Positions 2,384-47,635 of a stretch of 64,000 nucleotides of DNA are shown piece by piece. The position numbers and the translations under genes were made by a program. How positions within the stretch are numbered: the stretch's first letter is position 1; each line of letters opens with the position of its first letter. The notes beneath the pieces are model-generated. The model saw only the letters and a program-made list of their open reading frames with translations. It ran no database searches and had not been told where the DNA came from. The DNA is from Psammoneis japonica. Its lineage: Eukaryota. The stretch lies in contig QPGO01000114.1 in NCBI GenBank assembly GCA_008632985.1, positions 1 to 64,000 of the forward strand, given 5' to 3'.

Positions 2384-2977
2384 AGCTTGTGGCCATTTGT
2401 TCGTGTGTGCTCTGTTGTCGTCAATGTGCTTGGACTGAACGCGTTGCCCTCTTTCTAAACAATTCTCGTTCTAGTGTGAATAGCTAGTCTTATGTCGCCT
2501 TGGCCGTCTTACCCCGATTTTACACAAACTCCCGACACCCTGAGATCTTTTTTTTAACACTCTCAGAATGGATATCGTTCACGTGGATTGCCGTCCAACA
2601 TTGACAATCGTGTCATGGTGACTTTTGTTGAGTTTTACGAAACGCTCTAGAGTTTTGTTCGCAATAAGCTCCACAGTCATATTGGAGTGCGACACCCTCA
2701 ACTCTCTCACGAATGCGCTAGACTCGGCCGGATCCGGCAATTTCAGTATGGTTATTATTCGTTGTCGTTTGCCCTCGGGTTCGGAAGTCGTCGACGTTAC
2801 GTCACCGCAACCATCCTTTTGTTCGGGCAAAACGTATGTTGTTCATTTTGGAGCATCGGGCAATGTCAGCACAGTGATTTGTCATCGTTTGCCCTCGGGG
2901 TTTGAAGCCGTCGACGTTACGTTGCCCAGCCGTGTTGTTTGGAACGAGATTCTTCTGTTGTTTTGTTGAAACGATTA

Positions 2978-4047
2978 GTATTCGGTGCCAGCCCATCATC
3001 TTTTCCAACGCACGAAGCGGATACTCTTCTAGGCCTCAATGACGGTGCAGGTATGGGCGCTATGGATTCAGACTTTGGAGACGATGGCAAATACCGCGAC
3101 TTTGGAGGTTTTGACGATGACGGTGGCGACGTGGGCAATGCGGGTACTCATACCACAGATCTTTCATGATAGGCCTGTGTTTCTTTGTTGGAAGAACCAC
3201 AGGTGGCACGGAGATAATATTTGCCACCGTACGCCTTCTGATACAAAACGAGAGGAGGAATCGCAATAGAAATGTTAGCAAGACACGCATCAACATTTCA
3301 CGCTACAGACGCCATCATAATCCCTTGGACACGGAATTGAATACAACCCCAATGACCATGTCAAGTGGGACATACGTTCTAGACAAAAAGCATAGTAAGT
3401 AATAATGTCGATAGTCTCGACGCTACCGGTATACACATGCATATTCTCGCCTACTCGGAAGCAATCATCTCGAATCCGTTAGTCATTTAGCGATTGAATC
3501 TACGGCCGCCTCTTCCTACTCCTGCCGACCCTCAGCCAATGAGGCCTTGCCCTATCTTGAGATCGCATTCGGTGCCAACCCAGGATCTTTTCCAATGCAT
3601 GAAGCGGACACTCTTCCAGGCCTCGATGACGATGCAGGTGTGGGCGCTGTGGATTCCGACTTTGGAGGCGATGGCAACGACCGCGACTTTATTAGAGGTT
3701 TTGGCGATGACGGTGGCGACGTGAGCAATGCGGGTGTTCACACCACGGATCTTTCACGACAGGCCTGTGTTTCTTTGTCGGAAGAATCACCAGCGGCACG
3801 TGGATAATATTTGACCACCCTGCGCTTTCTGATACAAAACGAGAGGAGGCACCTGTGATGGAATCGCAATGTAAACGGCAGCATGACACGCATCAACATT
3901 TCACGCTACAGACGCCATCACAATCACTTGGGCACGGAATTGAATACAACCCCAATGACCCTGTCAAGTGGGACACATGTTCTAGACAAAAAGCATGGTG
4001 TCTAATAATCCGTTAGTCCTTTAGCGATTGAATCTACGACCGCCTCT
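2978..4047 (+). repeat. Tandem segmental duplication: copy 1 ~2978-3512, copy 2 ~3565-4047
   Basis: Direct alignment, e.g. ttcggtgcca, gactttgga, gatgacggtggcgacgtg, ctgatacaaaacgagaggagg, ttctagacaaaaagcat and aatccgttagtc occur in both copies. Confidence 0.95.
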
Positions 4048-4100
4048 CGTGTCCTTTCTTGAGATCCTGAATTGACAGTCGATTTCGAGAGTTCCCTTCA

Positions 4101-5982
4101 TCAACAAAGAAAAGATCTTTCCCGTTTCGTTTTGGAGTCGTCGCTCGCATCCGTTGCCTCCATCACGGCGGCATTTGCACTCTCCGTTTCGGTGGTTGTG
4201 ACGCCTTCAAGGGGGCGTTTCTTTCTCGTGTCGCCTTTCGCATCGTCCCCAGTGATTGCAGTTGTCTCCACAAATGGTTTTGCACGAGAGTGAGATCCGC
4301 TTCTACGTGCGGTGTGTTTGTCAATTCTACATTCGGTGGCATCCTCGGTTACAGCACGAGGTGTTACCAAGGAACCTCGGTCTTGTTTGTCAGGTCCTTG
4401 CTTGGCAGACGGCGCTTCCAAGGGAACTCGGCCCCACTCGCTTCTGCCCTGCTTGGTCGCCACGACAATCTTACTAGTCCTTGCGGCGTCGATTGCTCCA
4501 CCATCGAAGTTGCTCCTGGTTTCGGGGTTTGCGTGAGCGACCTTGTCACCAGTCACTGTTTCGACGATTTCTCTTTCGTCGGTGCTCAATTCTGACAAAA
4601 CCGATTCGTTGGTGTTCTCATCTCCGGGCTCATCACGAGCGACCGCCCCAACAGCCGTCGCAGCCACCAGCTCATCAGCACCAACAGTGGTGGCGGCTGA
4701 CGCTACATTGGTGGTAGCTAAGGTCACATCTTGGAAACAATGAATCGTCCGCCGTTTGGTGCTTTGACCATCCTCCTTCCTCCGGTGCCCGCCTCTCTTT
4801 TTCCCCTGAGAGATGAAAATGCACAAATACAATGAGGCAACAGCATCCTTGAAATGAAACAAGCATCCGAGAAATCGTCTTACATTTTCTTTCGGGTCGT
4901 CGATTTCGTTGCCCAAAATATTCTTTATTGTTTCCGCCATCTCCTGGAAGGATTTAATCCTCCGAGGACTGACCCGCTTTCCGGACTCCTTCACCTTCAT
5001 CAGCCGGCGCACAAGCAGTTCTACTGCTAGCACTATCCGCTTCCCAGTCTGCACTTTAGGCTGGGCAAGAGCCGCCTCCCAACTCTCATGGCCTTTTTTC
5101 ATCCCTTCAACGAATTCAAGGCAAGCAACAACCTTCTCGACTGTAAAACTAGCGATTGTCTTAGGATATTCGTCATCTTGTTTCTTCATCTCTTGAAGCT
5201 TCTCCCGCTGCTGCTCCTCTGGTTCCTCCGAGTATCCAGCTCGAATCCTCTGGAGTTCGTAGGATTTGCCGTAGTTAACGAACAATTCCTCAGGATTGTT
5301 AAACGGTATCTTGAACCCCCTCCTTGATTTCCCCTCCACCAACTTCAAACCAAGAAAGTAGTGTACCAGGCCGCTCGTGGTGTCCAAAGCCTGAATTGTC
5401 GGGATTTCTGTCGATTTGCATTCATTCGCATAAGGCAGTATATTTCCTCGCGCCCTGTCGTGAAGTTCTCCAGTGAGATCATTGGTTATGTCATACGTAA
5501 AGTCTTGATTTTTGGCATCAAAAACACAATTGCATCAAAAATGTTTAGAAAAACAAAAACACCTTTAAGAAAAGATCACACGACGGCTTCTCATCTGTCG
5601 ACTTACTGTCACAGCACTCGAAATCGTATTGATCGGGTCTTGATTCATGGTGTATCCAGCTCTTGAATCTGCCTACAAAAACTGACTTCTTGTCCTTCTT
5701 TTCTGCATATGCGCCCAAATCCACTAGTTCGCCTGGATTCAGCTCAAAGGTCTCTCGTCCCGTGGGTTCAATTTCTTCGGCCCTCAAAAAGAGACCATAT
5801 CCTGCTTTAGGTATTGTCGATTCTCGAGCGTAAAAGATCAAACGAGCGTTAAGGCTTCTGAAGGTGAGTTTCTTTTGTGGAAGCAATACGCCATTGACTT
5901 CCACGATTTCCGCTATTGTGGAATCAGGGCTGATGCAAGTTTCAAATTCTTCAAAAGTCATTGTTGATGTCGACTCGTCCAT
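4101..5982 (-). CDS. SET-domain-like protein with a long low-complexity C-terminus; probable intron or frameshift near 5500-5575
   Basis: YARESTIPKAGYGLF (SET N-terminal motif) in ORF 5545-6012. The downstream frame reads NILPYANE...EELFVNYGKSY (SET C-terminal ELxxxYG motif) and continues as ORF 4101-5387. ATG at 5982. Splice sites not confirmed. Confidence 0.55.
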
Positions 5983-7530: not shown

Positions 7531-9888
7531 AGTGTCTAAGGAAATTGTAAACACAGCATGGCATAGTTTTCATTGCATAGATAATTGAAATGTTGTTTAT
7601 AGCAAATGTTACAGCTAATTAGTCACAAAGAAAGCAATGGGAATGACTCACTGGCGGTCTTTCTCTGCTGACGGTTCTGCTGTTTCCTTGTCTGCAGGAG
7701 TCTTCAACAGAGAAATAGAAGATGCATTATTTACATCTCTAAGGAGTCGGCTGAATGCCTTCCTTCCTCTTGTTTCTGGCACAGCTGTGGCCTTGATGGA
7801 TTAATGGGATCTCCTTTGAGCAAGTCACGACAGTGTGGCGCGGTGGAGGTGTCACCATGCCCAGAGTCTTGGTGGCTCAAAGCTTTACTGTAACAAATTT
7901 CCATTGGCCAATGGGCCTCGTTTCCAACTCATAGAAAGGGAAGTAAAGGAGATTCATCTATTTCTGCTCATATTCCAGCATCATACCGTCTTCCGCAACG
8001 CCGACTTGATTGAGAAGATGAGAGGCGCCAGAGCACTCGTCTCGAGCTTTTTCACCAGTGTTGAGACTAGGAACCACTTCTTTCCCACCTGAAATGTTGT
8101 ATGACGATTAGTTTCTTGGACGTGATTGACAAAGACTCGAATGCGGTGTTAATATCCCTTTTGAGGGCTTCCAGGTTATTGTTGGCGGCTGCCTTCGGAG
8201 CTGCTGGGATGCCCAAAGTGGAGTTGTCATTTCCCGTCTCCTGCATAATGTGATGGCGATGTTTTTGCACACATTGTTGGTAATGGCATATAACAGCAAT
8301 AATGCGCCGAAACATCGGCGTTGAACACATTACTTTCGACAAACGACATCGTCAACAGCAGCGGCACTCACCATTTTGTTTTGTCGCGGTGAAAGTGTGG
8401 AAAAATTAGTTTTTTGCGTTGGCCTGCAGCAGTGATATACAACATATGTACATTGATATCTGTGGTATAACGTTAATATTTCTACGCTACTATGTCGCCG
8501 AAATAAGCACCGTGGCGCAGGCGATTTTGACAAATTCGGCCGATTCCCGACGTAGAGCCACGCAGGCATGTGCCAGTGTTCCGGGAACCGGCCGTCGCGT
8601 TCCCGGAGTGAGCGATGGAGCGATGCACATGACATGGCACTGGAGGGTCATTTCTGGCTTGTAGAAATCTACACGTTGTCTGGCATTGAAATTCAAAAAG
8701 TAATGTTGAACCAACAGCGTTCCCGATCCATTCAAAAACACCGAAACATCACTCCCTCATTCATTTCGTTCGTCAAGACATGGAGAGTGTGCGGCATGGA
8801 ACCATTTCCAAACAAGCTACATTCTGTTCTTCTGTCTCTTCTCACTTGAAAGGCATGTTTACATCGAAAGCAGTGTTGATGCATCATGCATTTGCAGCAC
8901 CAGTGTGAGGATTTTTAACCTGACAATGTCATTCTCCATCTCCATCTTTCCCATGCAGACATGCAGTGCTGCACCTCAAGACACACAGCACCTCAAGAGA
9001 CTCCACAAAGTGTGTTGTGGGTTTTGTTTCTTGTTGCCTTCTGATCTGCAAATGAGGTTTGAGACACAACCTGAACAATTTTGGGTCGTGGTTGTCGGGA
9101 ACGACTTGCACCTCATCAATTTGGGGCTGTCGTCAGAAGACCGCACACTTTGTGGTGACGAGGTGTCAACGAGTTTTGCAAACTCAAGACGTGCAGCACA
9201 GTGCCTCAAGAAATGCAGCACCTCAAGACACCATCACGGAACACAGCACATTGCACCTCAAGTTCGTCTCATTTCTTGTCAAGTGGTGCATGACTGTCCT
9301 CTCTGTGCTGCAGCAAGGTTGCGGTGTGCGCTGGATGAGTTGAGACAGTGTCTCAAGAAACACAGTGCCTCAAGACACCATCACGGAGCATGGTGCATTG
9401 CACTGCGAGAAGCAAAACCATTCATTTCGTTCGTTGACGACAATGTGTTGGTGTGACCTGTTGAGTTCTCGCAATCTTTTTTAGAGCAAGTGGCACTCAT
9501 CCATGACACTGTCTGCTGAGTGTCACAGGACTGTCCGACGCGTTCCAGCCCCAGGTGGGACTCCTTGTGACATTGGGCCCGTAGAATTCTACGTGCGAGC
9601 TCCGTAGTGCGAGAATTTAATCAATGGACACATTTATCTTCAACATCAAATAAACGGCCAAGTTTGTGGTGCAATTGTGCCTCTTGCCACTCGACGTTTT
9701 TGCAACTTCGCCTGCCCCACGCGATTCTTAAGACATTGTAGAATCGCGCTGCAACAAAAAATGTCAAAAGTTGTTGGACGGATCGCTCAACAAGTGCACC
9801 GTAAAATGACACAAAATGTCGAAAAAATCACGCAGAAATCTACGTGCGCGACATGCGACGAGACTCAAAAAACTGTCGATGTCACAGT

Positions 9889-12188
9889 TCAGCAGCACGA
9901 GGTCCCACCTAGACCTGGAACGCGTCGTCCTTTGTTTTGCATGTTGAGTTCCTCGATCACCTGCTTCCGAATCGTCGCTCGCTCTTTCTCGCGACGGCCT
10001 TGCTCCAATTCTGATTCAAGTGCTTTCACCTTCTTGCTGTCTTCATCCGTCTCGCTGCGGACTTGATCCAATTCCTTTGTGACGTTGTTCAATTTTGTGC
10101 GTTCTTCTTCATGCATGACCTTGCACTCACTCTTGCNNNNNNNNNNNNNNNNNNNNNNNNNNNNNNNNNNNNNNNNNNNNNNNNNNNNNNNNNNNNNNNN
10201 NNNNNNNNNNNNNNNNNNNNNNNNNNNNNNNNNNNNNNNNNNNNNNNNNNNNNNNNNNNNNNNNNNNNNNNNNNNNNNNNNNNNNNNNNNNNNNNNNNNN
10301 NNNNNNNNNNNNNNNNNNNNNNNNNNNNNNNNNNNNNNNNNNNNNNNNNNNNNNNNNNNNNNNNNNNNNNNNNNNNNNNNNNNNNNNNNNNNNNNNNNNN
10401 NNNNNNNNNNNNNNNNNNNNNNNNGAATGTCCGCATTGAGCTTGGCAATCTCGACCTGATGGCGCTGCTGCAATTCCGAGGAAACTGCTTCAAAGGTTTC
10501 AGAAGCTTGCACTGTGCGGTTGGTGGATTGCTGGACAGGCGGAAAAGACTTGTGCGGCAGAGCTGGGTTTGTGTCCGAAAGACGTCGGCGTTTTGCTGTG
10601 TCAGTGGGTCGGCGGTCCACAGCATCCAATGCGGCAATGGCTTCATTGCCCATGTCTGAAGAAAGCCTTTTGTGTGGGTCTTGACTCTTTGTGTTCTTGT
10701 GTCGAGCACGACGAAGGCGTTCGGGGGTTAACACCTTCGCGGCCATCATGAGCGAAATGCCGCATGCGCGATTGCCATGGTTGGTGCACTGTTTCCAGTC
10801 CTTGAATTCGCACAACTGTGCAATGTGCTTCACACTCCGATGGCAGTCTTTCCCAATGGCTTGTTTGGGTTGAACTTGCAGGGCAGGTTTTTGAGATCCC
10901 ATTCGCGCTTCTGCACCTTGCTCAGCGGGCCGCAGAAAACGCGAACTTGATCAGGATGCGACCACTTCCGCAACTGATCAAAAATCTTGACAATGCAAAC
11001 AGGGTCATGGGGGTTCTCAACACATTCAATGAGCCCCTCTTTCTCGGTGCGTCCTTTCAGATTTGACAATGACAACTGGTGTGTCTTGTCGATGTCAATC
11101 ACAGAGTTGAGTCGCTGCATGCCAAAGAACTCGGATTGCTCATCATCAACAACGTCTTGATGGAATTGGTCCCACACAGCTTCGGAGACCTCTGCCACTC
11201 CACGAAAAAGGAAGCCATGAGCAAACCAAAACGCAAGCATCTCTTGACAGTGAGAGGGATCCTTGCAGGGCTTGAGCCCACCTTCCACAACTTTCACCCA
11301 AAGCTTTTTGTCGCCCTTCCAATCAAATTTTGCAGCGTTCTTCCCAACTCCAAAGGTGGGATCGCTTTCTCGCAATTCCTTCCATCTCTTCTTGCAGTTG
11401 TCGGCAAACTCTCCTTTCCCATTGAAGTCTTTCTTGAAGTCACACTTTGTGCATTTGCGATGGAAGGTTCCAAAAAGCGTCTTCATGCATTGCCCAAAAG
11501 CAGATGGTTCAAGGGCTTCTCCGGTGGGTGGGTTTTTCCAAGAGAAGAACACCAAGTCGCAACATTTCATCAGCACAAGGCGTTTCGGCTCACTCTTCTC
11601 TCCGCCAACCTCATTGTAGAATCGAAAATCCACGAGGAGACTGTCGCTCATTTCCGTCGGCACTTGCTCCAGAAGGCATTGCATCTTGTTTCCGCCTTTC
11701 TCTCGAATGGCATTGAAAAAGCGCATCTCGAGGTTGCAGGATTTTCGTTGGTGAGTCGTTTCTTGGCCTGCAGCAGCTTCCATCAATTTGCGATCCTCAT
11801 CCGAAACATTGAGGACGCTCTTGTCCTTGGCAATGACAGCTGTGGCAAGGGCGAGAGTCTGTCTGCTGGCTGTTGGCGAGGTCGTTGGAACAGTGGTTGT
11901 GCCCGAATTTGCTGCTGCGCCAGGATTGAACATTGCGGCCTCGGTGGGGTTTGCTGTGTGTGGCTGTCGGTTGACACCGACAGCAAGGTGGGCTTGCGGC
12001 TCCATCTCCACGGAAGCATTTTCTTGAGCCGCCCCCCCAAACAATTGAAACAATGCACTGGCTGCATCCAATGCATTCTGTGTCAGCACAAAGTCAACCT
12101 CTTCACCCTGTGAAAATGCGTCGTCCAAGTTTCGGCGCTCCGAAGGCGCAGTGCTTGAAGCAACAGAAATGTCGTCTCGTGTGTCCAT
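9889..12188 (-). mobile_element. Degenerate tyrosine-recombinase gene, Crypton-like DNA transposon; frameshift near 10835, crosses an assembly gap
   Basis: Catalytic-motif order: FLFRG..E (Arg I), DKT, ENPHDPVC, KPLGKTAI, TNHGNRA (HxxR), ARHKN..SQDPH (His/Tyr box with His at the expected Tyr). Confidence 0.7.
10137..10424. other. Assembly gap (288 N)
   Basis: Run of n. Confidence 1.
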
Positions 12189-12750
12189 GATGATGTTGAG
12201 TCATGATTGGAGACATCTTCAGACGTTCCGCAGGATGTGATGGAAAACAAAACAACAAAAATTAGATTGCACATTACAAAAGCGGTGCAAATCGTCTCTT
12301 CATGTTGTCGTCCTTTAACTGATGGGTTCCTGTGGAAACCGATCATTCACATGGACGCGTCCTCACCTTTGGGTGCGCCTCGGCGTCGGTCGAGCTGTGG
12401 CGCGGAAATCGCTTTGCAATTTCCACACCTTGCGATTTCCACACCACAGCTTGCCCTCCGCCTCGGCGCACCCTCAGGTTTGGCCGCTCCGGCCTCCGTG
12501 GAATTTGTGCGGGAGAACCGGTGCTCAGCCTGCCGGCTTTGCACCGGTTCCGATGACCTCAGCTGACGCTTCGGTCATTCCCGTGCAAATTCCGCGTCGG
12601 CCGGCCAGTGACTGAATGGTTTCCATGCAAAACTCATCTGCGCAGGGCCCGCGCACGCGAAATAAAAAGCAAGACCGTCCGTCACATGCACGCTGATTTG
12701 CAAATTGACACCTCGCTCTGCATCCTGCATCCGACACAAAAAGACAGAAG

Positions 12751-15700
12751 ACACACCGCACCATGGTGCACAAAATTCGGAGGCCCACCACTTTGAGTTG
12801 GCCAGGGTGGGGCTGGTTGGTCACGCACGTTTTGGTTGGATGTGATGAGCAACTGGCCATGCCCTGCAGGAAAAGCTGTTTGGTGGCGTGTGATCAAGCA
12901 GAAGCAGCCAACTTGCAGCCAAAAAGCAAAAAACACGGAGTGGGTCAAGATGTGGCAAAGTGGCATGACAACAAGCAACGAGAAGAAACCCAACTTGACT
13001 CATGAATGTGGCGCACAAATGTTGTCCAATGGCTTTGATCCTGTCTGGAAAAGCCAGCTGGTTGACAAGTGAACGGCGTTCACGTTGCTCGCCATGGTGT
13101 TGTTGTGCATCATGGTGCCGCTGTCATTGCGCGGGAAGGACTGGGATCCATTTTACCCACAGTGACTCTGTTTGTCAACAGTGTGCATTTTGCTGCATGA
13201 AGTCTGAAGACATTCTGAGAAGTGCTTCAGGCGGGTGACCCTGTTCGCACCGTCAAACAGCAATTTTTTAACTCAGATTCCACAGTTCTTTGGGGGTGTT
13301 CTGCACTTTTTTGAGTTCATCTGTGCCTCAAGCTGGAAAGAGAATCATCCATGAAGTGCCGCAAGGAAGTCAACCAGACATGGGAAGGCATCTCAAGGAT
13401 TGACTCCTGTGACCTGCAAGCAGCACTTGATGTGGACTGTGGTCTGCATGATCCCCTTTGACCCACAAGCAGCATGGCACTTTTTGCTTGAGTTCATCAT
13501 CCACAGAAGGATGTTCCTTTGCAAACAACTCAAGAGATTTGTTGAACAAGGCCTGTTTCATGTAAAACCAGAGGATTTGGGAGAGGCTGTCGACAAACGA
13601 CATGCTTCGAAAAGGGCTGCAACAGATGCAAGAAGGGCCCGCCCTTCAATTTTGCTCTTGGCATTTGTCCTCTTGACCAACAACATTCCACATTTGGGTT
13701 GGATGCAGAAGTTGTGATGGCATCAAGGATGATGCCCTTGCAGCTGCTTCTCTGCACAGGCACCGCCACGAGCAAACAGCGCCGCATCTCTGGGCAACTC
13801 ATGGCTTGAGGGAATCATTTCTCTGAAATGCTGAGTGCAACCTGCACATCCTTGGCATCCAACAACTTGTCTGTGGTGCTCAGCACGGTGTCCTCTTTTT
13901 TATCTTGATTGGAAGAGAAGCAAGAATGAGTGCCATCCATTCCTGTGCAACTTGATGCTGTGGCCACAGCACTGCTGCTTCAATCCCTGTTGAATCCCAA
14001 CCAGCAAGCACAGACAAACTCCGGCAATTGTGCCATGCTCAACCTCCAACACCTGGATCAAACCAAAGGCACCAGGACATGTCACAATGCAGCTTGCATC
14101 CCAAAGAGAAATGAACAACAAACCAAGAGGGAAGAACAAAGACAATTGACTCAAAACTGGCAATGACAAACCTGCCAATCTCAAAGTGACACCCGCTTGA
14201 AGAGAAAAGATGCTTTGACTGAAAGTGTGGCTTTCGTGCCCAGCCACCAGCCCTGAAACCAAATTGCTTGTTTCCAGCATTTGCAGCACCCGATTGTGCT
14301 GCAGGTTGGTGGCAGCTTCTTGAGATCCAATTCAACAGCTGCAACATCCAAGCCACTGGAAACAGCACCCACACGACACCACTTGGGAGGTTGGCTGTTG
14401 GAAGCAGGATCCATCGCAGTTCTGCAGCTTGAGCAACAGATGTGTTTGCCATCAAGACTGGCACAGAACAATGTCAGAGCAAAGCATGCAGACAACACCG
14501 CCATGTGTCACAATGATCTGACAAGCACATGGTTCAACAACACCCCAGCAATGCCCAGCAACCAAAATGTCTGCTGTGACTCAACAAGAGAAGCAGCATT
14601 TTTGTCGTCCATGTCAACGCACATCAGTTTGAAACCCAATGGCCTGGGGAACCAGCAAATGAATGCCAAGTCTCCACCCACCATGGTTGCAGGCAGGCCT
14701 TGAACCCAATGCATGAGCTGTGCTTTGCCAATCAGAATTAGACCGCATCCCAACAATGTTGCAGAAAGCCCCAACCTCACAGTGACAGTTGCCAGCAGTT
14801 CATCATTGGCATGACCACTGTTCATGCAGTGCTGGGCAATGGTCCAAGCCATTTGTGACAAAAACATGAGACCCTCATCTTGCGCTTGTCCCATGGCTGG
14901 CAAGAGGCAAAGTCAACAGAAATGACAAACAAACTTGATGAACCATGCCCGATCCAATTGTGAGCTTGGTTGAACTTGGCCATGTGCAGAGCAAAGCTGG
15001 GGTCTCAATGCACGCACAATGTGTGGGGAAGCCCAAATTGGACTCAGCTCCTTTTGCTTCAATGCATGTTTTTGTCAGCGTTGCTCCGTCTCCGCCATCC
15101 CTCAACAAGCTGAGAAGAAGGCACAGGTTCATTGTTCACAATGGCGCTGCAATTGTCCTTTTCTCCCCTGAGCAGTTGCATGGGCTCCTCCACCAGATGG
15201 TCAACAATTTCAGCTTCTGAAGAGAAAATTGCAGAGCAGCCCAACAAACCAAGTTTGTGGTTGCTTGGCAAGAGCAATGCACTTGGTTGTGGCAGCAAAG
15301 GCATCAATGTTGATGGTGTGTCTTCATGCAATGTCAGCCCAGAGCAGCTCTTTCTGTTGCAACAAACACTCACAATGTTCATCTTGTTTAGATCTCTCTC
15401 CCAGCATTGTGTCTTCTTCAATTTCTTCTTCTCAAAATCACTGTGCTGTCTTTGAGACTGACAAAGTCTTGATTTTCAGATCCATGATTTTGAAATTCTC
15501 CAAACAGCCAGTTGTGTCACTGAAGAACCCTGCTTTGAGATTGTGGAGTGAACCATCCACAATGATTTTGGGTCATTCAAATCAAGCTTCAACAGCTTTG
15601 ATTGAACTTCAGCAGAGTGGCAGAACAAAATTCAATGTGAAATTCCTCCAACACTTTGACGGCACTGTCCACAACAATGTTCCATCACAAATCAAACTTG

Positions 15701-15809
15701 GAAGTGATGAACAAGTTCTTTGGTGGATGCAGACATGGCATTGCTTGTCAAATTGTTGTGGCCACATGGTGGCAGGCCTCCAAATTTTACACACCATGGC
15801 GTGGTGTGT
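12751..15809. mobile_element. ~3.06-kb element bounded by 41-bp inverted repeats (possibly Tc1/mariner-like, heavily decayed)
   Basis: 12751-12791 acacaccgcaccatggtgcacaaaattcggaggcccaccac vs reverse complement of 15769-15809 acacaccacgccatggtgtgtaaaatttggaggcctgccac; 33/41 identical. No transposase recognised inside. Confidence 0.7.
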
Positions 15810-16364
15810 TTTTTTGGATCTCTCCCTCTAGCGGGAATCAGACAAAACCAAAAAAGTCTGAAAAACCATTTGCATGTAAGAGGCATTGCTTCTCAATCAA
15901 AGTTCAATCTTTTGAATGATCAACAAATTTTTCATTTGTCAAAAATGAGCACATGAACATTCATCATCAGAGCATTCAACAAGACCATCATTTCTGTGTG
16001 AGTGGTGTTGAACTCAGGTTGACAAAGTGGACATCACAGACAATGCAGTCGAGCAAACAGGGGGCAGCTGTCATGCTTCAAGTTGACTTTAGTGCCGTGT
16101 CCAACATGTGGCCAGGCGTGGCATCAATGGTTGCTGTGGACAGTTGGTTTGCATGCTGTCTGGGCAGGTGGAGGTTGATTGAATCGGGGGTCCTTTGGTG
16201 TTTGCAAAGGAGCAGACCTGTGCCATCTTCCCACTGGGGTTGCCTGGAGCTGATTTGAGAGGCGGGAATGCAGGATCCCTGGAGACAACGGTGGGTTGCC
16301 CGAACTGTGGCGACACTCATCCTTGCATTCATTGGCAATTTTGGTGGGAAAAAAGTGTGCATTG

Positions 16365-16740
16365 TCCTGATTGTCACAGAAAATCTGTGTCAATTTGAAA
16401 ATCTGTGAGATTGTTTCAGGGACCGAATGAAATCTGCAAGATTTTAGAACGGAAAATCTGGAATCTGCCCCGTCTGTCTTCCCCCCTCAGTTGCACAAAT
16501 GTGCACAGGGTGCACGTGTGCCGTGCCGGGAGGACCACTTTTGCTGCGCTGGGCCTTCAGAGGGGTTCTTCAAAGATTGCATGATTTGACAAATTTTGGA
16601 AAAAACTGGCTCCAGTTTTAGCAGAACAATTGAAAATCTGTGCTTTTTGAAAATCTGCAACTGTTTCTGAGGACCCCTTGAAAATCTGCAAGAAATCTGA
16701 ATCCCAAATCTGTGCCACAGATTTTCTGTGACAATCAGGG
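16365..16740. mobile_element. MITE (~376 bp) with 24-bp perfect TIR and internal aaatctg repeats
   Basis: cctgattgtcacagaaaatctgtg (16366-16389) is the reverse complement of 16716-16739. Flanked by TG on the left and CA on the right, compatible with a mutated TA target-site duplication. Confidence 0.75.
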
Positions 16741-19303
16741 CAAATGTTTGACAACAACATCAATGCATCCTCGTGAAAACACTTTTCTGCTTTCACTTGC
16801 AGTGTGGTCCAAGAGTGATTCCCGCTGTGGGGATGGATCATTTTCTTTTGTGTGGCCTGGGTGACAAGTGGCAAGAGTGACAATTTTCAAATCTCCGCAT
16901 GACAGACGGACACACTTGTTGTAGAAGACATGGCCTGCCTGCCTGTCTGCCCACCTTTGTGTCTCAGATGTCTGCATGAGCCAGGGGTCATCACACACTC
17001 AGCCCTGGATGCACTTGAGCCGCTGGCCTGAAATGTTGATGTCATGCGCACATTTTGATCCAGCCGCTGTGAAAAGCCAATGACTCCGGCAGCAACAAGC
17101 AAGTTTGTTCTCAACAGGACATTGCAGCACTCTCATGTGTTCTTTCCTTCATTGTGACATGCAACTTTTTTGTTTGAAATCAATCCAAAACATCTTGTTT
17201 TCCACTTGCAAATGTGCAGGACCATTGCAGAATCCCACATGTTGCCAGTCCAAGTTGCAACTCATTCGAAGTTTCAGTTGCCCAAACATCCCCATTTCAA
17301 CGGATTTGGGTCAAGGTGAAGTTGTTCAATTGTTTTGAAAAGAAGTGCAGCAAAATTGGGACAAGAGCACTGCTGTTGATGCCTCCGATCATTGGATGGA
17401 TGCCGGAACATTCATTGTGAGGTGAGCACTCGAGGGCAAGTTTCGCGGCATTTTCTTTTGTTTTGCTCTCAAAACAAATTGTTCTCAACATCTTTGTTGT
17501 TGGGGTGAAGTTTTCTTGCCTGTTCTTTTGGAAAGAATGAGAATCAGAAGAGCAGCAAAGCGCAGACAAAAATTTTGTTGTGCAAATCAAACGTCTGAGG
17601 AGCCACTCCCCACCAGCAAGTGGCACCACTTTCTAAGACAGACCAACACAAGAGCCCTGGACAACCAGTTCGGATGTGTGTTGCATTGACAACAGATCTC
17701 TAAGAGGCACTGCATGCCTTGGAGACTTTCTTCTGCTGCTTTGGCTGGACAAGCACTGTCCGTCGTGACCTCCAGCCCAACAGCTTCCGGCATCTCAAGC
17801 ACTTGTTGCACTGTGCTTCCAGCTCCAATCACCCACAATCATTAAAATTTGGGACTCATGACAAGACACAGTGAATTTGATGACAACATGTGACAAATCT
17901 TCTTGCAGCAGTCCAAGTGGATTTGGTTGTCAAGATGAGCAGCTTGCAAACAACTTGAAGGCGGGTCTGTGTTTGTTTCTGTTCACATGAAAGCACCCAT
18001 GCAAAAGCACCCTAAAAAGCCAGACACCTCAGCCCATCATCTTCCATGAACACACAAGTGAACAGATGTGATTGCATCCAATGCACTTGGACTTGAACAT
18101 TGGAAATGGCGTTGCCGGTTGATGCACCTGTGGCAGAAATTTTGGCGGAGAGCAAAAAAGTGTCAGCAAAAGTGCGACAACTGACAGTTCGAGCGGCAAT
18201 CGCCTGATGACATCCTTCCCACAGGATCAATCAAGACATTCCTTGTGGGCTCACCAATCAAATTAAAACATTGACGAAGTTGCAACCGAGCAACCAACAT
18301 TGTCCACTGCATGTTCTTGCCACAGAAAAGCATGAAGCAAGGCGGTGCTTGACCAACCAGCACGAATGTCAGGTGACTTCATTCACACCAAATCTTTCAT
18401 TGAATTGTTCAATGAATGTGTGGACCTTTCATGAACTTCAGCTGCAGAGGCATTTGCAACCTTCAATTGGGATGGAGGCAACAACAGCAAAAATGCACGA
18501 GAAACAGTGATGTGAAAAATAAAAGCATCTGAAGGAAAAATTCGAGTGGCAATCGCTGCGCCACATGATGCTTTCAATGGGGTTTAGAAAGACTCTGCAG
18601 ATGCAATTGCCACTTGATTGTCAACATTGATGCCACCACAAACAATTTGCTCACCTTGGTTGAAGTCTTTTTTCTCGTGCAAAAAGCATGAGAATTGTGG
18701 GGTGGCAGACAAACGTGCAAAAAAATGTTTCAGTCAAACATGGCATCTTTTGATTGAATGTCTCCGGCCATTTGCCCAACTCAGACAGCTTTGCTTAAAG
18801 CTGGACTGTCTGAGTTGGGCACACAGGGACATTGAACCACCACACTTGGTTTTGTGACTGACTTTTAAGCTGCTTGTGAGTTGAAACAAGTGCAAGATTT
18901 GGCGGGTGACATCACTCCCTCCACGAGGAGGCAGCACGTTGCAGGCGTTGTTGTCATCATTTTTTTCATGCTCTGCACTTGCTGGCAACTGCATTTCCAT
19001 GCAATGCAATGTCTTGCAATGACAAGGAAAATGCCCCGATTGCTTGTTGAGCTGGCAAGTTTTTCTTTTTTGGTGTGTGCCACGTTTCAACCAGCAACAG
19101 CACTCAGTTGCAACAGTCTGTTGCACACATGATTGTGCTGTTCTTGTGCTCCACTGTCTTTGCTTTTTTGGCATCAGACGACCCAAAAAGTTCTCATGTT
19201 GAAGTGCTGGAAGATGAGCATCCCCCAAAAGAGGTGAAAGTGGAAAAAAGACTTGTGGTGATGGCAAGGCTTTTCATGCTGGCAGACTGGGTGCCATTTT
19301 CTG

Positions 19304-22300
19304 TTGTTGCATGCCGTGCTTGCACTTGCATCATTCAGTGACCACGCTCCCCTTGCCATTGTGGTGCAGCAGCTGGTGCAAAAGTGGAAAAAAACTTGCA
19401 ATGATGGCAAAGTGATGAGACTTTTGCACAAAGAGCATGCAGAAAAAAGACTGGATGTGTCAAAGCCCCCCATCATGACCACCGTGATGATGAAGCAACT
19501 CCTGGGGCTGTTTCCCAATGTTCCTCTCCCCTGCACTGCTGCTGCGATGCTTGAGTGCAACAATCCAACACAGCAACAGAAGGATGGGCCAAAATGTCAT
19601 CGCTGCCCACCTTTCCCAGTTTGCAGTTTCACTGAGACCCTGCAGGATCTCTTCACCAAGCCAGTGTTCTGTGATCTTTCCAAGTTGCAGGTCAATCCGA
19701 GTGACATTTGGTCACCTCATGTGCCACCCCCCACTGACGGTTGTTTGGATTCCAGTGCTGGCTGGGCCAAGGATGTTGAGATGTCATTCCCGGATTGTCC
19801 TGGTGACTGGCAATTGTCCACTCAAAGTCAAGACATGGGTGATGGCAAGTGGCAACAATGTTGCTCCAATGCCAACAAAACAGCCTCTGATTTTCATGTT
19901 CACCTTGTCAATCACTCGGACAAGACCAGAACCAATGCGGTCAATCCTCATGGGATGGAGCCTGCCAATGTGCTCACTTGCCATGATTCAAGAGAATGCA
20001 CACTGTGGCTGTTGTTGTTGTTGTTGTTGGCATCCACTTGGATTCACACCCAATTTGGACAAGAAAGACAAGCTTGGGCACCTTGTTGTTGACAACTGTC
20101 GCCGCATTCTCAAGGAGGTTCTCCGTGGTCTGCTTCATTGCCAGGCAAATCCACCCATTGTTTGTGCAACAATGGGCACTCAATGCCACCATGTCAGAGC
20201 CACAACACATTGCAACTCCCTGTTGGGGGTCATCCTCAATCAAGAATGCATTTGTGGAAGAGTCATGAGCCAAAGCAAGACCAAGAGGTTGTCTCACAAC
20301 TGCCATGTGCCCTCCCACCTGTCTGATGATCCCCTCCATGTCTGCCAATTCTTTGGCCAAGCTTTCATTGAGTTGCTCACTGTTGATGCATTGGGTCTGG
20401 ATCCAGAGGATGACAACAGCGAAAAAAAGGCTGAGACTGAGCCAGCTTCCTCCCTCATTCGCCGAATGACCACATGCTCCAAAACATTGAGGAAAGTGTT
20501 TGGACAGCATGCGGTGGACAATGCTTGCTTTCCACTTGACATGGGTGACAACCCACGCGGTGCATTCGGCATGACCATTGCTGATGTGATGCAGGTGTTG
20601 GAGGTGGGTGTTGTCCCTCAAATGATGGAGGTGACAATGGGAGAGATGTCCGCCAAACAGAAAGAGGAACACGACCGGATTGCATCTGAATTGTTCTGCA
20701 CATCCCATTGTCGTCCAGGTCAGAGACGTGACCATTCACAAATTCGAGTCAATGGGGGACTTTTCACACTCAGTCAACTTGCGTGTGATGAGAAGATGGG
20801 CAAGCTTCTTGCACTTGCAGTCATTGGCCACACACATGCTGGCAGAAAACTGCTGGAAAAAAGGTGCAATCCATCCTTTGACAGCAAAAAGAAAAAGACG
20901 GCTGATGGCTTTAAAGGAAAGAAGCAACAAGAAGAACAGTTCGCCAAATCATCAGAAAGTGAACCCAATGATGAGGACCCTGATCCTGCTGAACCATCAA
21001 ATGAACCAACTGGCAAAACAAACACAACCCCAGTTGATGAGAATGCACCTGTTGCATTTCCTAAAGAGGCATGGTGTGATGTCACCTGCGATCCATCCGA
21101 TTTCCATCACCGCAACCATGTGATGCAACAGATGCATCATCACAGCCTTTCTGAATTTTGGGAACCATTTCCAATCAACTGGATGACCGCTGCTTTTTGT
21201 CATGCCAGAAGATTGCATGGGATGAAACCAAGTCATTGAAGATGGAAACAACACGCTGTTGAGACTTCACCTGATCAATTGTTGATGCCCGGACTGCATG
21301 GTCTTGTCGCTGGTTTGGTGGATGATTGGAACAACTTTGCAAGGTGTGCGGACAGACGGCCCTTTCTTCTCACAAAGACAAAATTGCCAAGCACTGTCAT
21401 TCATGCTGAAACAGAAAACAAACTTCCGGAATCCTTCATGAAGATCACAGATGATGAAATGACAGCCAAAAAATCCGTCGATTGTGGAGTTGATGAGTTG
21501 CTGGACTTGTTGCATCACATGCTGCTTTTTCATTCATTTTGTCTCCATGGCAAGGGACTCTGTGGAAAAACAGGAAAGGTGGATTTCAAGTGCCGCGTCA
21601 TTCTGCTCATGTTCAAGATCAATTCATGCCTTCGTCACGCAAGGAACACTTGCTTGTTCCGAGCCGCCAAGTTCCACTCTGTGCTGCATCTCATTGTCAA
21701 CTCTTTCCTTTGTGGCCAGATTGCAAATTTCTCTGCCATGATTGGAGAGAGTCACCTGAAGTTCTGGGCCAAGCTTCTGGCAAAAACTTGCCAGGTTGCA
21801 TTGGGTGCAGACAATTGCTTGGACCAACTTGTTGTTTGTTTGCATGACATGGCAGTTCTTGAGAAGGCACACAGCCTTCTCATCCCTCCCACTGTTGGTC
21901 AGGTGAGCGTCTTCCTCTGAAGAAAAATTGATGCACCCCTTGTTTGTTGTGAACAGAACTGCCTGAACTTGCTGCCAGTGTTCAGGTGGCAACAAGGTCC
22001 TGGTCGTCCCAGAAACTGCAGAGTTGGACTCTGCCCTGCTGCAGAACTGTCCGCCAAGCACAATGAAGTTGTTGTTTGCTTGGAGTTTGCCACACCAGAG
22101 AAGGGGATCTTACAACAACAACAGGTTGCGGTGTGACACACCCAGGGTCTTGTACGAAGAGGGAGCTGGTCAGAAGAAAAGGCACCCTTTTTTGCTCCGT
22201 GGTTTTGTGTCAGCTGATGATGAAACAACGCCACTTGCCGCAGGACAGTGATGCAAGGAACAGACAAAGATGTTGTGTGACATGTCTTCCAACAGTGTGG

Positions 22301-22520
22301 TCAAGTGCTGGGAACTTGAAACAACAACTGTTGGTCGTGGCAGAGATTCTCAGACGATCCCAAAATTTTGGCATGCCAGCAGAGATGCAATTGCAGCGGG
22401 GGGGTTTCTGTCCTGGTTCCTGACAACTGCAATGGAGACAACGTTGAAGTGGTGAGATGCTCTGTCTCATTGTTGTTTGTTGCAGACAGACACAATGACT
22501 GGCCAAATCATTTCCTGTCC
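19304..22520 (+). mobile_element. Degenerate Plavaka-type (CACTA/CMC-related) transposase, several frameshifts
   Basis: Motifs HSDKT...MEP; VDNACFPLDMGDNPRG..G...DVMQ...VG; AKFHSVLH.....CGQIANFSAMIGESHLKFWAK.LAKTCQ; C-terminal FVADRHNDWPNHF. These resemble Plavaka transposase motifs as I recall them (KfH..H...fG...N....gE..lK..aK). Confidence 0.65.
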
Positions 22521-22669
22521 AACAAAGTGCTCCAGCTTCACTCAGACAAATGCAGGAAGCAAGAAAAAGGTGAACGACAACGCACCTTGGGAAAAAGGAA
22601 ATGTTCGCAAATGTTTTTTAAGCATTGTGAGTGCTCCAATGAGCCAGCTGCAATGGCATGTCAACCCAT

Positions 22670-24900: not shown

Positions 24901-24999
24901 CATCAGACAGCTTGTTGGACTTCCGGCGAGGTTGTTTCAGGCAGAATTTTTGCTTGACTTCTCTTTCATTGTTCAAATGTTGCCAATGCTTTTGGGGCG

Positions 25000-26620: not shown

Positions 26621-27509
26621 TTTGACTTTGAGCTTGGCTTTCATTCTAGGAGACATCAACATGGATTTTGTCAGGCAAGGAACAGATGGGAAATGGAAGC
26701 AGCACGCTCAATGCAATCCCTCACCTCAACAGCCACAGATCTTTTGCATTTTTTGGTTTGGAAGTGGCGCACATTGATCATTTTTCTGCGTGCCTTTTTT
26801 TCTTTTGTTGAGCCAGCTCCAGGAGGGCTGCCTCCTTGAAAGCCAATCTGGCACAGCTTGGATCTGCTGGCCACTTTGCAAAGTCACCGAGGTGGTTTGG
26901 ATTGTGTGCATTGCTCTTCCCACTGCTCTCGAACATGAAGATTTTTGCATCAAACATCATCAGCATGATGCCACGGATGAAGTGGTCTGTCAAACCCCCT
27001 TTTTAAGTGACAAATGAAGGTGACCGCGTTTGTTCACCCAATGTGTGGGAGAATGACACAGCCTCAATTTTGTGTCAAGGCTGTTCTCCACACTGAACGG
27101 GGCCAGATGCACTGGGGGGGGGGGGGGGCAACGGCCAGATGGAATGTTGGCCAATGCTGTTTTGTGACATGGCAGCGGCAAAGCAATGCCAGGTTGAGTC
27201 AGGTGGAATGTCATCAGGAAAGAAGTGTGATGTGTTGGACTGAAATGAGATTCGTCTGTTCCATTTTGGTGATGTGGCATGACAGGCAAGGGATTGGGCA
27301 GCATTCTGTGGGGTGGGATCATGTTGAGGTTGTTGTTTCACACAGGGAATGACATGGCTGCAGAGGACAAGAGATGGCGTCACCCCAACATCATCCGTTC
27401 ACTGCTCAACATGTGTTGATCAGCAACTTGGACCAGATTTGGGAGACTGTGGTTTGCTGCGGGAGATGTGCTTCATGTCACAACAATGTGCAGGCTTTTG
27501 TTCAGTGCA

Positions 27510-39399: not shown

Positions 39400-39520
39400 C
39401 CATCAACCCCACAATGGCGTCAAGGATTTCATCACGAGTTTTGTTGCTCTTGTTGCGCTCAAAGGGTGTCTTGCCCAAGACGAGTTCCAAGGTGAGCACG
39501 CCGAGCGACTGCAAATTCCT
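39400..39520 (-). pseudogene. Short protein-kinase fragment (subdomain IX-like)
   Basis: NLQSLGVLTLELVLGKTPFE resembles DlWslGvl.yEl..G..PF. Confidence 0.5.
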
Positions 39521-47634: not shown

Positions 47635-47635
47635 T

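What the first reader, a model, noticed from the sequence alone, without database searches (positions are those of the whole stretch)
2978..4047. Tandem duplication with one-sided TA loss
At least 12 TA sites of copy 1 are CA or TG in copy 2: gtatt/gcatt, gatac/gacac, tctag/tccag, ggtat/ggtgt, gctat/gctgt, ggtac/ggtgt, catac/cacac, gatag/gacag, cgtac/cctgc, cataa/cacaa, catac/cacat, catag/catgg. I saw no clean reverse case. CpG transitions occur in both copies, and several TA sites survive in both. One copy was therefore partially edited, on both strands, while its neighbour ~590 bp away was spared.
Basis: seen in the sequence. Interest (0 to 1): 0.85.

Follow-up and report, generated by a model that had tools for sequence, protein, structure and literature searches.

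The report
One-sided TpA erasure in diatom repeat
Two neighbouring copies of a 0.5-kb repeat in a diatom genome differ because one copy has had most of its TA dinucleotides turned into CA or TG, and the same TA-erasing process has wiped almost every TA from about two thirds of the surrounding 64 kb, a kind of targeted hypermutation so far reported only in one unrelated alga.

Summary
Units 2975-3557 and 3558-4066 are a tandem pair, 384 of 436 aligned positions identical. That gives 15 sites with TA in copy 1 and CA/TG in copy 2, against 1 reverse case (14:1 inside the local alignment, binomial p=0.001).

The pair is a small sample of a much larger feature. About 41 of the 64 kb lie in three sharply bounded blocks with TA observed/expected 0.05 and CA/TG 1.65, against 0.61 and about 1.16 in the gene-bearing blocks. 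The loss of TA and CG is balanced by the gain in CA+TG.

Polarity is shown for the blocks. A Plavaka-like transposase relic has 0 Tyr in 581 residues and Cys(TGT) at a Tyr invariant in 24 of 24 homologues. Copies of local genes lying in a TA-free block show TA to CA/TG 13:0.

For the pair itself polarity is inferred only. Copy 2's head is a compositional outlier, copy 1 is ordinary, and the unique flank to the right of copy 2 is also TA-poor.

The closest known case is TpA-only A:T>G:C hypermutation of integrated viral DNA in Bigelowiella natans (2026 preprint). My searches found no report of it in diatoms. A RIP-like gain of TA in copy 1 is the main rival.

The parts
2975..3557 (.). Tandem unit 1 (copy 1), with ordinary TA content
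   Evidence: TA o/e is 0.84 over 2975-3404, the 90th percentile of TA-normal-domain windows; the head is 0.70, the 72nd percentile.
3558..4066 (.). Tandem unit 2 (copy 2), with partial TA loss
   Evidence: 14 to 15 sites that are TA in copy 1 read CA or TG here. TA o/e is 0.36, the 8th percentile.
3558..3804 (.). Head of copy 2, where every aligned TA of copy 1 has been changed
   Evidence: 8 of 8 sites are converted to CA/TG (plus 1 changed to GA), against 7 of 16 further on; Fisher p=0.0095. The last TA before it is at 3553 and the first converted site is 3566, so the boundary sits at the unit junction. The only TAs in this stretch (3690, 3693) are specific to copy 2: one lies in a 3-bp insertion and one is a G>A change.
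3393..3461 (.). Segment present only in copy 1 (69-75 bp)
   Evidence: Alignment gap. One contig of run X1 joins 3392 to 3462, probably copy 2 laid on copy 1. The segment is TA-rich: 8 TA in 3398-3472.
4036..4703 (.). Unique right flank with two TA-free gaps (4036-4303 and 4476-4703)
   Evidence: Gaps of 269 and 229 bp. Only 5 gaps of 150 bp or more occur in 22.9 kb of TA-normal domains, and about 0.01 gaps of 269 bp or more are expected at the domain's TA density.
8917..33468 (.). TA-free domain 1 (24.6 kb)
   Evidence: TA o/e is 0.00-0.12 per kb and CA/TG is 1.4-2.3. It contains an N run at 10137-10424 and a TA-normal MITE-like insert at 9536-9927.
19494..21236 (+). Relic of a Plavaka-like transposase gene with all TA removed
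   Evidence: 40% identical over 344 aa to P0122. The family has 1128 members and weak Plavaka Pfam hits in 2 of the 8 members scanned. The relic has 0 Tyr in 581 aa. A Tyr invariant in 24 of 24 homologues reads Cys TGT here, and a column that is 70% Tyr reads His CAT.
38560..52074 (.). TA-free domain 2 (13.5 kb)
46987..47938 (+). Mosaic of degenerate copies of two nearby genes, lying inside TA-free domain 2
   Evidence: 46987-47665 is a copy of 62192-62917 (567 of 675 identical; TA>CA/TG 8 vs 0; CG>CA/TG 20 vs 4). 47636-47938 is a copy of 52632-52892 (232 of 258 identical; 5 vs 0; 8 vs 1).
53601..56549 (.). TA-free domain 3 (2.9 kb), largely a tandem array of about 185 bp
61483..63114 (+). Intact DUF4116 gene in a TA-normal domain; it serves as the reference for the purged copy at 47 kb
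   Evidence: Pfam DUF4116 at 1.1e-91; translation.

Best explanation
Copy 2 of the tandem pair, together with about 650 bp of unique DNA to its right, has been hit by a hypermutation process specific to TpA. The process changes A:T to G:C at TA dinucleotides on either strand (TA>TG or TA>CA). Copy 1 lay outside the affected patch.

The same process has run to near saturation in about 64% of this window. There it has turned a transposase gene, tandem arrays and stray copies of host genes into TA-free, CA/TG-rich DNA. Gene-bearing islands are spared, and the borders between the two states are sharp.

What is shown: the one-sided asymmetry in the pair, the domain structure, the mass balance, and the polarity inside the TA-free domains. 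What is inferred: that copy 2 was changed in place by that process; that targeting follows position or chromatin state and not sequence homology; and that the chemistry is enzymatic deamination of adenine preceded by T (A>I>G), as proposed for Bigelowiella natans.
For: (1) The pair shows TA in copy 1 against CA/TG in copy 2 at 14 sites, with 1 reverse, p=0.00098. The products split 7 CA to 7 TG, so both strands are involved. The remaining transitions do not lean the same way.

(2) Copy 2 is the compositional outlier and copy 1 is not. Conversion is 8 of 8 in copy 2's head against 7 of 16 later on.

(3) Two of the five largest TA gaps in all the TA-normal DNA lie directly to the right of copy 2.

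(4) At window scale, TA o/e is 0.05 over 39.6 kb against 0.61 over 22.9 kb. As fractions of all dinucleotides, TA falls from 0.0426 to 0.0031 and CG from 0.0559 to 0.0261, while CA+TG rises from 0.1444 to 0.2071. Total YR is 0.243 against 0.236. The borders are sharp.

(5) Polarity inside the TA-free domains is shown two ways. The transposase relic has 0 Tyr in 581 aa against 3.0% in its family, and the Tyr invariant in 24 of 24 homologues reads Cys TGT. Copies of genes from TA-normal domains show TA>CA/TG 8:0 and 5:0.

(6) Contigs of the public runs reproduce TA-free stretches: 10426-10887 with 1 other letter and 12097-12400 with 0.

(7) There is a precedent. Mutation-accumulation lines of B. 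natans show hypermutation only at TpA, giving TpG or CpA, confined to particular regions (10.64898/2026.01.13.699255; abstract, Results and Discussion read).
Against: No outgroup was available for the pair, so its polarity is indirect.

The CpG differences run 6:3, with copy 2 keeping more CG. That is the direction expected if copy 1 had suffered extra C>T, although 6:3 is not significant.

Copy 1's second half and its private 75-bp segment are rather TA-rich (o/e 0.93 and 1.43).

The right flank is TA-poor but not enriched in CA/TG (1.14).

The TA-loss boundary falls exactly on the unit junction. That fits import of a ready-edited unit as well as it fits editing in place.

A MITE-like element of very high copy number inside TA-free domain 1 keeps normal TA density. 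The process is therefore not acting on everything in a domain, or the insert is young.

The enzyme is unknown, and no whole genome was held in which to look for one.
Confidence: 0.62

Rival explanations
1. RIP-like direction. The ancestral unit looked like copy 2, and copy 1 gained TA through C>T at CpA (and at CpG), by a repeat-triggered cytosine deamination like that of fungi.
For: C>T is the commonest spontaneous change (general knowledge). CpA>TpA is the RIP signature (RIPCAL paper PMC2621366, abstract seen in the listing). Copy 2 keeps CG at 6 sites where copy 1 has TG/CA, against 3 the other way. Copy 1's second half and its private segment are TA-rich. Diatoms encode DNMT4 enzymes that may be related to fungal RID; their function is unknown (PMC9998398, passages read).
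Against: No 430-bp stretch of the window exceeds TA o/e 1.14, so nothing here looks RIP-mutated. Copy 1's head is compositionally ordinary, at the 72nd percentile. This reading needs an ancestral head with no TA in about 240 bp, which is the 1st-2nd percentile for TA-normal DNA. RIP mutates both copies (PMC2621366 abstract), whereas here the split is 14:1. Wherever the TA/CA-TG exchange in this window could be polarised, it runs the other way.
Confidence: 0.15
2. TA loss did happen, but not in place. Copy 2 came from a paralogue that had already been TA-purged elsewhere and was joined next to copy 1 by unequal recombination or gene conversion. On this reading the 'one-sided editing of neighbours' is only apparent.
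For: The TA-loss boundary lies within 13 bp of the unit junction: last TA at 3553, first converted site at 3566. Summed contig depth over 2500-4485 is 188-569, against about 58 for unique DNA next door, so related sequence probably exists elsewhere in the genome. The 47-kb mosaic shows that gene fragments do get moved around in this region.
Against: The unique right flank is also TA-poor, which fits a local patch. Copy 2's tail keeps all its TA (4003-4035), so the unit is not uniformly purged. Cross-laying of the two copies on each other at 80% likeness may account for much of the extra depth.
Confidence: 0.15
3. Chance. The two copies drifted apart under ordinary neutral mutation, and the 14:1 split is a post-hoc pick.
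For: TA/CA-TG differences are common between repeat units in this genome even in TA-normal DNA.
Against: Binomial p=0.00098. The four control pairs are symmetric. Conversions cluster by position (Fisher p=0.0095). The adjoining flank has extreme TA gaps.
Confidence: 0.04
4. Artefact. The TA-free sequence comes from base-calling or assembly errors at modified bases, not from real DNA sequence.
For: All three runs found come from one sample, which may be the assembly's own source, so there is no independent confirmation.
Against: Exact or near-exact contigs at normal depth cover copy 2 and the TA-free stretches. A per-position miscall of a palindromic TA should leave TA in place and create CG, whereas both are depleted (inference). 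The transposase relic and the gene-fragment copies also carry ordinary divergence, including about 40% transversions.
Confidence: 0.03

Closest known systems
TpA-targeted hypermutation of integrated viral regions in the chlorarachniophyte Bigelowiella natans (Mettrop et al., bioRxiv 10.64898/2026.01.13.699255, April 2026; abstract, Results and Discussion read)
   Same: The changes are A>G/T>C only at TpA and give TpG or CpA depending on the strand. They are confined to particular regions while the rest of the genome is normal. The long-term trace is TpA depletion with CpA+TpG enrichment, in clusters of adjacent 1-kb windows. TpA-depleted coding sequences are enriched in transposon domains. The single-copy state of the main target argues against homology triggering.
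   Different: The lineage differs: a diatom here (stramenopile), a rhizarian there. The degree differs: TA o/e is 0.05 over 40 kb here, against Rho_TpA 0.45 for the NCLDV region and a cluster cut-off of 0.43 there. The targets seen here are a DNA-transposon relic, tandem arrays and host-gene fragments, with no recognisable viral genes. Here the purge goes with CpG decay in part of the blocks; CpG is not mentioned in that paper (0 occurrences). Here there is only the sequence trace, with no measured mutation rate.
Repeat-induced point mutation (RIP) of ascomycete fungi
   Same: Both are context-specific transition hypermutation that disables repeats and transposons. A tandem duplication of 0.5 kb at 88% identity is the classic substrate.
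   Different: RIP runs in the opposite chemical direction (C>T at CpA creates TA). RIP hits both copies. It depends on homology, whereas here a very high-copy MITE-like element keeps its TA and low-copy DNA is purged.
CpG decay through deamination of 5-methylcytosine in methylated transposons
   Same: CG>TG/CA is seen in the TA-free blocks (CG o/e 0.44; 20:4 and 8:1 in polarised pairs). The end products (CA/TG) are the same.
   Different: It cannot remove TA. TA loss and CpG loss can also be separated: at 10.7-13 kb and 39-47 kb CG o/e stays at 0.6-1.2 while TA is at or below about 0.17, and copy 2 has lost TA but not CG.
ADAR-type A-to-I hyperediting of double-stranded RNA (metazoa)
   Same: A>G on both strands with a preference for U/T on the 5' side (as summarised in the Discussion of the B. 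natans preprint).
   Different: It acts on RNA. Fixing the changes in DNA would need retro-copying, which does not fit contiguous blocks of 3-25 kb or a tandem pair. ADARs are described in metazoan lineages (same source).

Membership tests
TpA-targeted A:T>G:C hypermutation (B. natans type) | Changes confined to TpA, giving TpG or CpA | tested here: met
   In the pair, 14 of 15 changed TA sites of copy 1 read CA (7) or TG (7) in copy 2; the other transitions show no matching bias. In the gene copies, 13 of 18 aligned TA are converted to CA/TG with 0 reverse.
TpA-targeted A:T>G:C hypermutation (B. natans type) | Direction is A/T to G/C (TA is ancestral) | tested here: met
   Met for the TA-free domains: the Tyr invariant in 24 of 24 homologues reads Cys TGT, the relic has 0 Tyr in 581 aa, and degenerate copies of intact genes lose TA. 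For the tandem pair itself the direction is only inferred from composition.
TpA-targeted A:T>G:C hypermutation (B. natans type) | Regional confinement, with the rest of the genome normal | tested here: met
   Three blocks with TA o/e about 0.05 against four blocks with about 0.61. The borders resolve to under about 0.6 kb.
TpA-targeted A:T>G:C hypermutation (B. natans type) | TpA depletion coupled to CpA+TpG enrichment | tested here: met
   CA o/e 1.67 and TG 1.64 against 1.19 and 1.13. The dinucleotide mass balance closes: 0.0693 lost against 0.0627 gained.
TpA-targeted A:T>G:C hypermutation (B. natans type) | Targets are foreign or selfish DNA | tested here: inconclusive
   One Plavaka-like transposase relic and several tandem arrays were found. 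Most ORFs in the blocks have no Pfam hit: 62 ORFs from the whole window were scanned, and among those in the TA-free blocks only the DUF4116 copy and a weak LRR match scored. No viral genes were recognised.
TpA-targeted A:T>G:C hypermutation (B. natans type) | De novo mutation rate raised about 1000-fold in the regions | not testable with these tools
   This needs mutation-accumulation lines or population resequencing.
Fungal RIP | C>T at CpA, creating an excess of TpA | tested here: not met
   The highest TA o/e of any 430-bp stretch is 1.14. Polarised changes run TA>CA/TG.
Fungal RIP | Both copies of a duplication are mutated | tested here: not met
   The split is 14:1, one-sided.
Fungal RIP | Triggered by sequence duplication or homology | tested here: not met
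   The MITE-like element, with word depth above 100,000 against about 58 for unique DNA, keeps normal TA density. Purged DNA at 10.4-12.4 kb has a depth of only 82-220.
Fungal RIP | RID/DNMT4-type enzyme present | not testable with these tools
   No whole genome is held for this window.
5mC-driven CpG decay | CG>TG/CA with CpG depletion | tested here: met
   CG o/e is 0.44 in the TA-free blocks; polarised pairs give 20:4 and 8:1. This explains the CpG loss only, not the TA loss.

The most novel reading that the evidence does not exclude
Diatoms possess a genome-defence hypermutation that erases TpA (A>I>G on either strand) from silenced DNA. It is aimed by chromosomal position or chromatin state, not by homology, and in this species it has run to completion over most non-genic DNA. 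The tandem pair catches its edge: two units 88% alike that sit side by side, one edited and one untouched. Together with Bigelowiella this would make TpA editing an old, widespread immune-like system of the SAR supergroup, a mirror image of fungal RIP.
Probability: 0.4. Interest if true: 0.85.

Novelty: new member of a known kind. Interest (0 to 1): 0.72.

Why it matters
TpA-specific hypermutation of invading DNA has been described once, in a 2026 preprint on a chlorarachniophyte, and its enzyme is unknown. A second, far more saturated case in a diatom would show that the process is not an oddity of one alga.

It would also supply abundant natural substrate for working out the rules. The window offers sharp borders, partly edited patches, residual-TA contexts and a tandem pair with one edited unit.

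It points to an experimentally tractable, ecologically dominant group in which to find the deaminase. In addition, it would explain why large parts of such genomes yield long spurious ORFs (no TAA or TAG) and unannotatable transposon relics.

Tried and rejected
Outgroup for the pair:
- No whole genome is held for this window.
- No third copy lies in the window (blastn with word size 9).
- A degenerate 40-nt pattern, built from the stretch identical in both copies, found 0 stretches in metagenome contigs.
- Read laying printed only 40 of 683 'other letter' rows, and none fell on a diagnostic site. The further copies hinted at by depth could therefore not be read.

Sequencing runs: 3 runs from one sample and one study were listed, and no RNA holder was listed. 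Nothing can be said about expression.

ORF 4104-5534(-), next to copy 2: no Pfam hit and no homologue at E<=0.001 among proteins of 262-835 residues. Whether the TA-poor right flank is coding stays open.

The DUF4116 repeat's Tyr position was tried as a way to polarise changes. The position varies (Y/F/H/A) among the gene's own repeats, so it is not decisive. The transposase alignment was used instead.

Earlier scan notes: none exist for this genome, and none were alike by sequence.

Literature: seven full-text searches returned no report of TA-loss hypermutation in diatoms. One search found the B. natans preprint.

Ideas considered and set aside:
- Pol-eta/WA-type error-prone repair. AA is not depleted; its o/e is 1.28.
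- GC-biased gene conversion. Base composition is unchanged and the effect is specific to one dinucleotide.
- Selection for long ORFs. The longest ORF is 581 aa and TGA stops are abundant.
Full report
**What is at the coordinates**

The region 2975-4066 is a head-to-tail duplication. The repeat finder gives five collinear segment pairs at 87-95% identity, spaced 534-603 bp apart. A local alignment of 2980-3416 with 3567-4018 has 384 of 436 aligned positions identical. A global alignment of the whole units has 430 matches and 56 mismatches.

The units differ by several indels:
- a 3-bp and a 1-bp insertion in copy 2;
- a 12-bp insertion in copy 2;
- a 69-75-bp segment found only in copy 1 (about 3393-3472).

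The junction is at 3557/3558, and a short motif closes both units. blastn finds no third copy in the window.

All 12 listed site pairs exist, and there are three more, at 3267, 3276 and 3396. Copy 1 has 24 TA in the aligned part. Their states in copy 2 are:

| State in copy 2 | Sites |
|---|---|
| TA (kept) | 9 |
| CA | 7 |
| TG | 7 |
| other | 1 |

Of the 12 TA in copy 2, 9 are shared with copy 1. Two are other.

The 14:1 split has a two-sided binomial p of 0.00098. With 2979/3566, which lies just outside the local alignment, the split is 15:1.

The asymmetry is specific to TA. CpG-type differences run 3:6, and the remaining transitions do not lean toward G/C in copy 2. Four control comparisons between units of the 178-bp array in the same domain are symmetric, at 2:3, 0:3, 3:4 and 2:3.

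**The organism**

The window is eukaryotic. It holds an intron-less ornithine carbamoyltransferase gene (35428-36462; Pfam 2.9e-52 and 5.6e-40). Its best matches are diatom proteins at 71-80% identity, and none is close to 100%. A DUF4116 repeat protein (61483-63114, 1.1e-91) fits a diatom. No whole genome is held.

**The larger feature**

The window as a whole has only 1120 TA, an o/e of 0.26. The TA are not spread evenly.

| Domain type | Coordinates | TA o/e | CA o/e | TG o/e | CG o/e |
|---|---|---|---|---|---|
| TA-normal (22.9 kb analysed) | 1-8916, 33469-38559, 52075-53600, 56550-64000 | 0.61 | 1.19 | 1.13 | 1.00 |
| TA-free (39.6 kb analysed, 124 TA) | 8917-33468, 38560-52074, 53601-56549 | 0.05 | 1.67 | 1.64 | 0.44 |

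The three TA-free blocks add up to about 41 kb, or 64% of the window (values).

As fractions of all dinucleotides:

| Dinucleotide class | TA-normal | TA-free |
|---|---|---|
| TA | 0.0426 | 0.0031 |
| CG | 0.0559 | 0.0261 |
| CA+TG | 0.1444 | 0.2071 |
| All YR | 0.243 | 0.236 |

Base composition is unchanged between the two states. The TA-free DNA is therefore what TA-normal DNA becomes if about 93% of TA and about half of CG are converted by single transitions into CA or TG.

TA loss and CpG loss can be separated. The stretches 10.7-13 kb and 39-47 kb keep CG o/e at 0.6-1.2 while TA stays at or below about 0.17.

All the recognisable conserved genes lie in the TA-normal islands.

**Polarity in the TA-free domains**

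First, ORF 19494-21236 is 40% identical over 344 residues to P0122. P0122 belongs to a family of 1128 proteins, and 2 of the 8 members scanned give weak Plavaka-transposase Pfam hits. I aligned the ORF with 24 family members. The results were:
- Tyr: 0 of the ORF's 581 residues, against 3.0% in the family.
- The one Tyr invariant in all 24 homologues reads Cys (TGT) in the ORF.
- A column that is 70% Tyr reads His (CAT).
- His, Cys and Met are raised: 5.3%, 5.9% and 4.5% against 3.1%, 2.1% and 2.3%.

These are the products expected from TAY>CAY/TGY and ATA>ATG.

Second, 46987-47665 is a degenerate, frame-broken copy of part of the intact DUF4116 gene. TA in the gene reads CA/TG in the copy at 8 sites, with 0 reverse. 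CG>CA/TG runs 20:4.

Third, 47636-47938 copies 52632-52892, with 5:0 for TA and 8:1 for CG.

Inside arrays that lie in TA-free DNA, units often differ by CA against TG at the same dinucleotide. That is expected if an ancestral palindromic TA or CG was resolved independently in each unit after amplification.

**Is the sequence real?**

Contigs of public run X1 match copy 2 exactly (3535-3914) and match TA-free stretches (10426-10887 with 1 other letter; 12097-12400 with 0). A contig of X2 matches copy 1 exactly (2707-3328). All the runs are from one sample, which may be the assembly's source, so this is read-level support and not independent support.

**Back to the pair: which copy changed?**

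No outgroup could be obtained. Four indirect lines point to loss in copy 2.

(i) Composition:

| Stretch | TA o/e | Percentile among windows of TA-normal DNA |
|---|---|---|
| Copy 2 head (3562-3801) | 0.17 | 1.8th (240-bp windows) |
| Copy 1 head | 0.70 | 72nd (240-bp windows) |
| Copy 2 whole | 0.36 | 8th (430-bp windows) |
| Copy 1 whole | 0.84 | 90th (430-bp windows) |

(ii) Conversion depends on position. It is 8 of 8 sites in the head and 7 of 16 later on (Fisher p=0.0095). That is a patch, not a sprinkling.

(iii) The patch continues into unique DNA. The TA gaps 4035-4304 and 4475-4704 are two of only five gaps of 150 bp or more in all 22.9 kb of TA-normal DNA. About 0.01 gaps of 269 bp or more are expected at that TA density.

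(iv) The only process in this window that exchanges TA with CA/TG, and that could be polarised, removes TA.

Four points cut the other way:
- Copy 2 keeps more CpG (6:3).
- Copy 1's second half and its private segment are TA-rich (o/e 0.93 and 1.43).
- The right flank is not enriched in CA/TG.
- The left edge of the patch sits on the unit junction, between 3553 and 3566. That would also be expected if unit 2 had arrived already edited from a paralogue. Summed contig depth of 188-569 over 2500-4485, against about 58 for adjacent unique DNA, hints at further copies elsewhere, although cross-laying of the two units on each other explains part of it.

**How it probably works**

What is shown is a TA-specific A:T>G:C transition process that is symmetric between strands, limited to regions, and spares gene islands.

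Three steps are inferred.

1. Targeting follows position or chromatin, not homology. One of two units 88% alike is hit and the other is not. Low-copy DNA is purged (depth 82-220 at 10.4-12.4 kb). A 392-bp MITE-like element (26-nt inverted ends at 9536-9561 and 9902-9927) keeps normal TA density inside a TA-free block, although its word depth is above 100,000.

2. The chemistry is deamination of an adenine that follows T. Inosine is read as G, so the outcome is TA>TG on the edited strand and TA>CA on the other. This is the proposal made for B. natans, where an ADAT2-like candidate was named. Because TA is a palindrome, T>C through a modified thymine gives the same outcome and cannot be told apart here.

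3. CpG decay in the same blocks is ordinary 5mC deamination in methylated repeats.

Residual TA in the purged blocks are biased by context. TTAA is retained at 0.47 of the normal density, CTAA at 0.27, TTAG at 0.22 and GTAA at 0.16. ATAT, ATAC and CTAT are at 0. This may reflect an enzyme preference or re-creation of TA from the abundant CAA/TTG, and it remains unexplained.

**Comparison with what is known**

The closest case is the April 2026 preprint on Bigelowiella natans (10.64898/2026.01.13.699255; abstract, Results and Discussion read). In mutation-accumulation lines, 231 of 302 nuclear single-nucleotide mutations fell in two integrated viral regions. Almost all were A>G/T>C, and all of those fell on TpA. 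The rates were about 1000 times background. The genome carries clusters of windows that are TpA-poor and CpA+TpG-rich.

That text has no occurrence of 'diatom', 'stramenopile' or 'CpG'. Seven further full-text searches returned no report of such a process in diatoms.

Fungal RIP is the functional analogue, but it runs the opposite way, hits both copies and depends on homology. The membership rows give the tests. Diatom DNMT4 enzymes, possibly related to RID, have no known function (PMC9998398, passages read). They keep the RIP-like rival alive at low odds.

**Verdict**

The finding's real value is that it led to a diatom genome region in which TpA erasure has gone almost to completion. I rate it a new member of a kind described only once. 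Interest is 0.72.

Noticed in passing
window 9536-9927: A MITE-like element of 392 bp with 26-nt inverted ends (88% complementary). Summed word depth in run X1 is about 108,000-175,000, against about 58 for unique DNA, so it has thousands of copies. It keeps normal TA density although it sits inside TA-free domain 1.
   Followed up: partly
window 10137-10424: A run of 288 N (an assembly gap or a withheld stretch). It distorts the composition figures for 10-11 kb.
   Followed up: no
window 9198-9256 vs 9345-9403; 53610-55380; 41296-42323: Repeat units inside TA-free DNA often differ by CA against TG at the same dinucleotide (1-5 such flips per pair). This is the footprint of an ancestral TA or CG resolved independently in each unit.
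   Followed up: partly
window 46987-47938: Fragments of two different nearby genes lie side by side as a mosaic in TA-free DNA: the DUF4116 gene at 62 kb and an RsmB/F-like methyltransferase fragment at 52.6 kb. This points to local shuffling of gene pieces.
   Followed up: partly
window 59639-59722 and 61272-61355: Inverted repeats of 84 nt, 98% complementary and 1549 bp apart, enclose ORF 59834-60793 (no Pfam hit). It looks like a young DNA transposon in TA-normal DNA.
   Followed up: no
window 12097-12400: Two contigs of run X1 cover this TA-free stretch. One is exact (depth 47) and one has 29 differences in 304 bp (depth 63). The second may be the other haplotype or a paralogue. Its differences were not shown.
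   Followed up: no
TA-free domains (10730-33450, 38600-52050, 53620-56540): The 124 residual TA are biased by context. TTAA is kept at 0.47 of normal density, CTAA at 0.27, TTAG at 0.22 and GTAA at 0.16. ATAT, ATAC and CTAT are at 0. The cause could be an enzyme preference or re-creation from CAA/TTG, and it is unresolved.
   Followed up: partly
window 10.7-13 kb and 39-47 kb versus 13-33 kb, 47-52 kb and 54-56 kb: Some TA-free stretches keep CpG (o/e 0.6-1.2) and others have lost it (0.01-0.5). TA loss therefore comes before CpG loss or is independent of it.
   Followed up: partly
window 6626-7514: A tandem array of about 178 bp in TA-normal DNA, with summed depth of up to about 1660 in X1. 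Its units differ at most TA sites in both directions, which suggests milder TA loss in all units.
   Followed up: partly
window 40939-42323: An array with a period of about 90 bp and no TA for 1417 bp (41099-42516). Long ORFs overlap on both strands there, a by-product of the absence of TAA/TAG stops.
   Followed up: no
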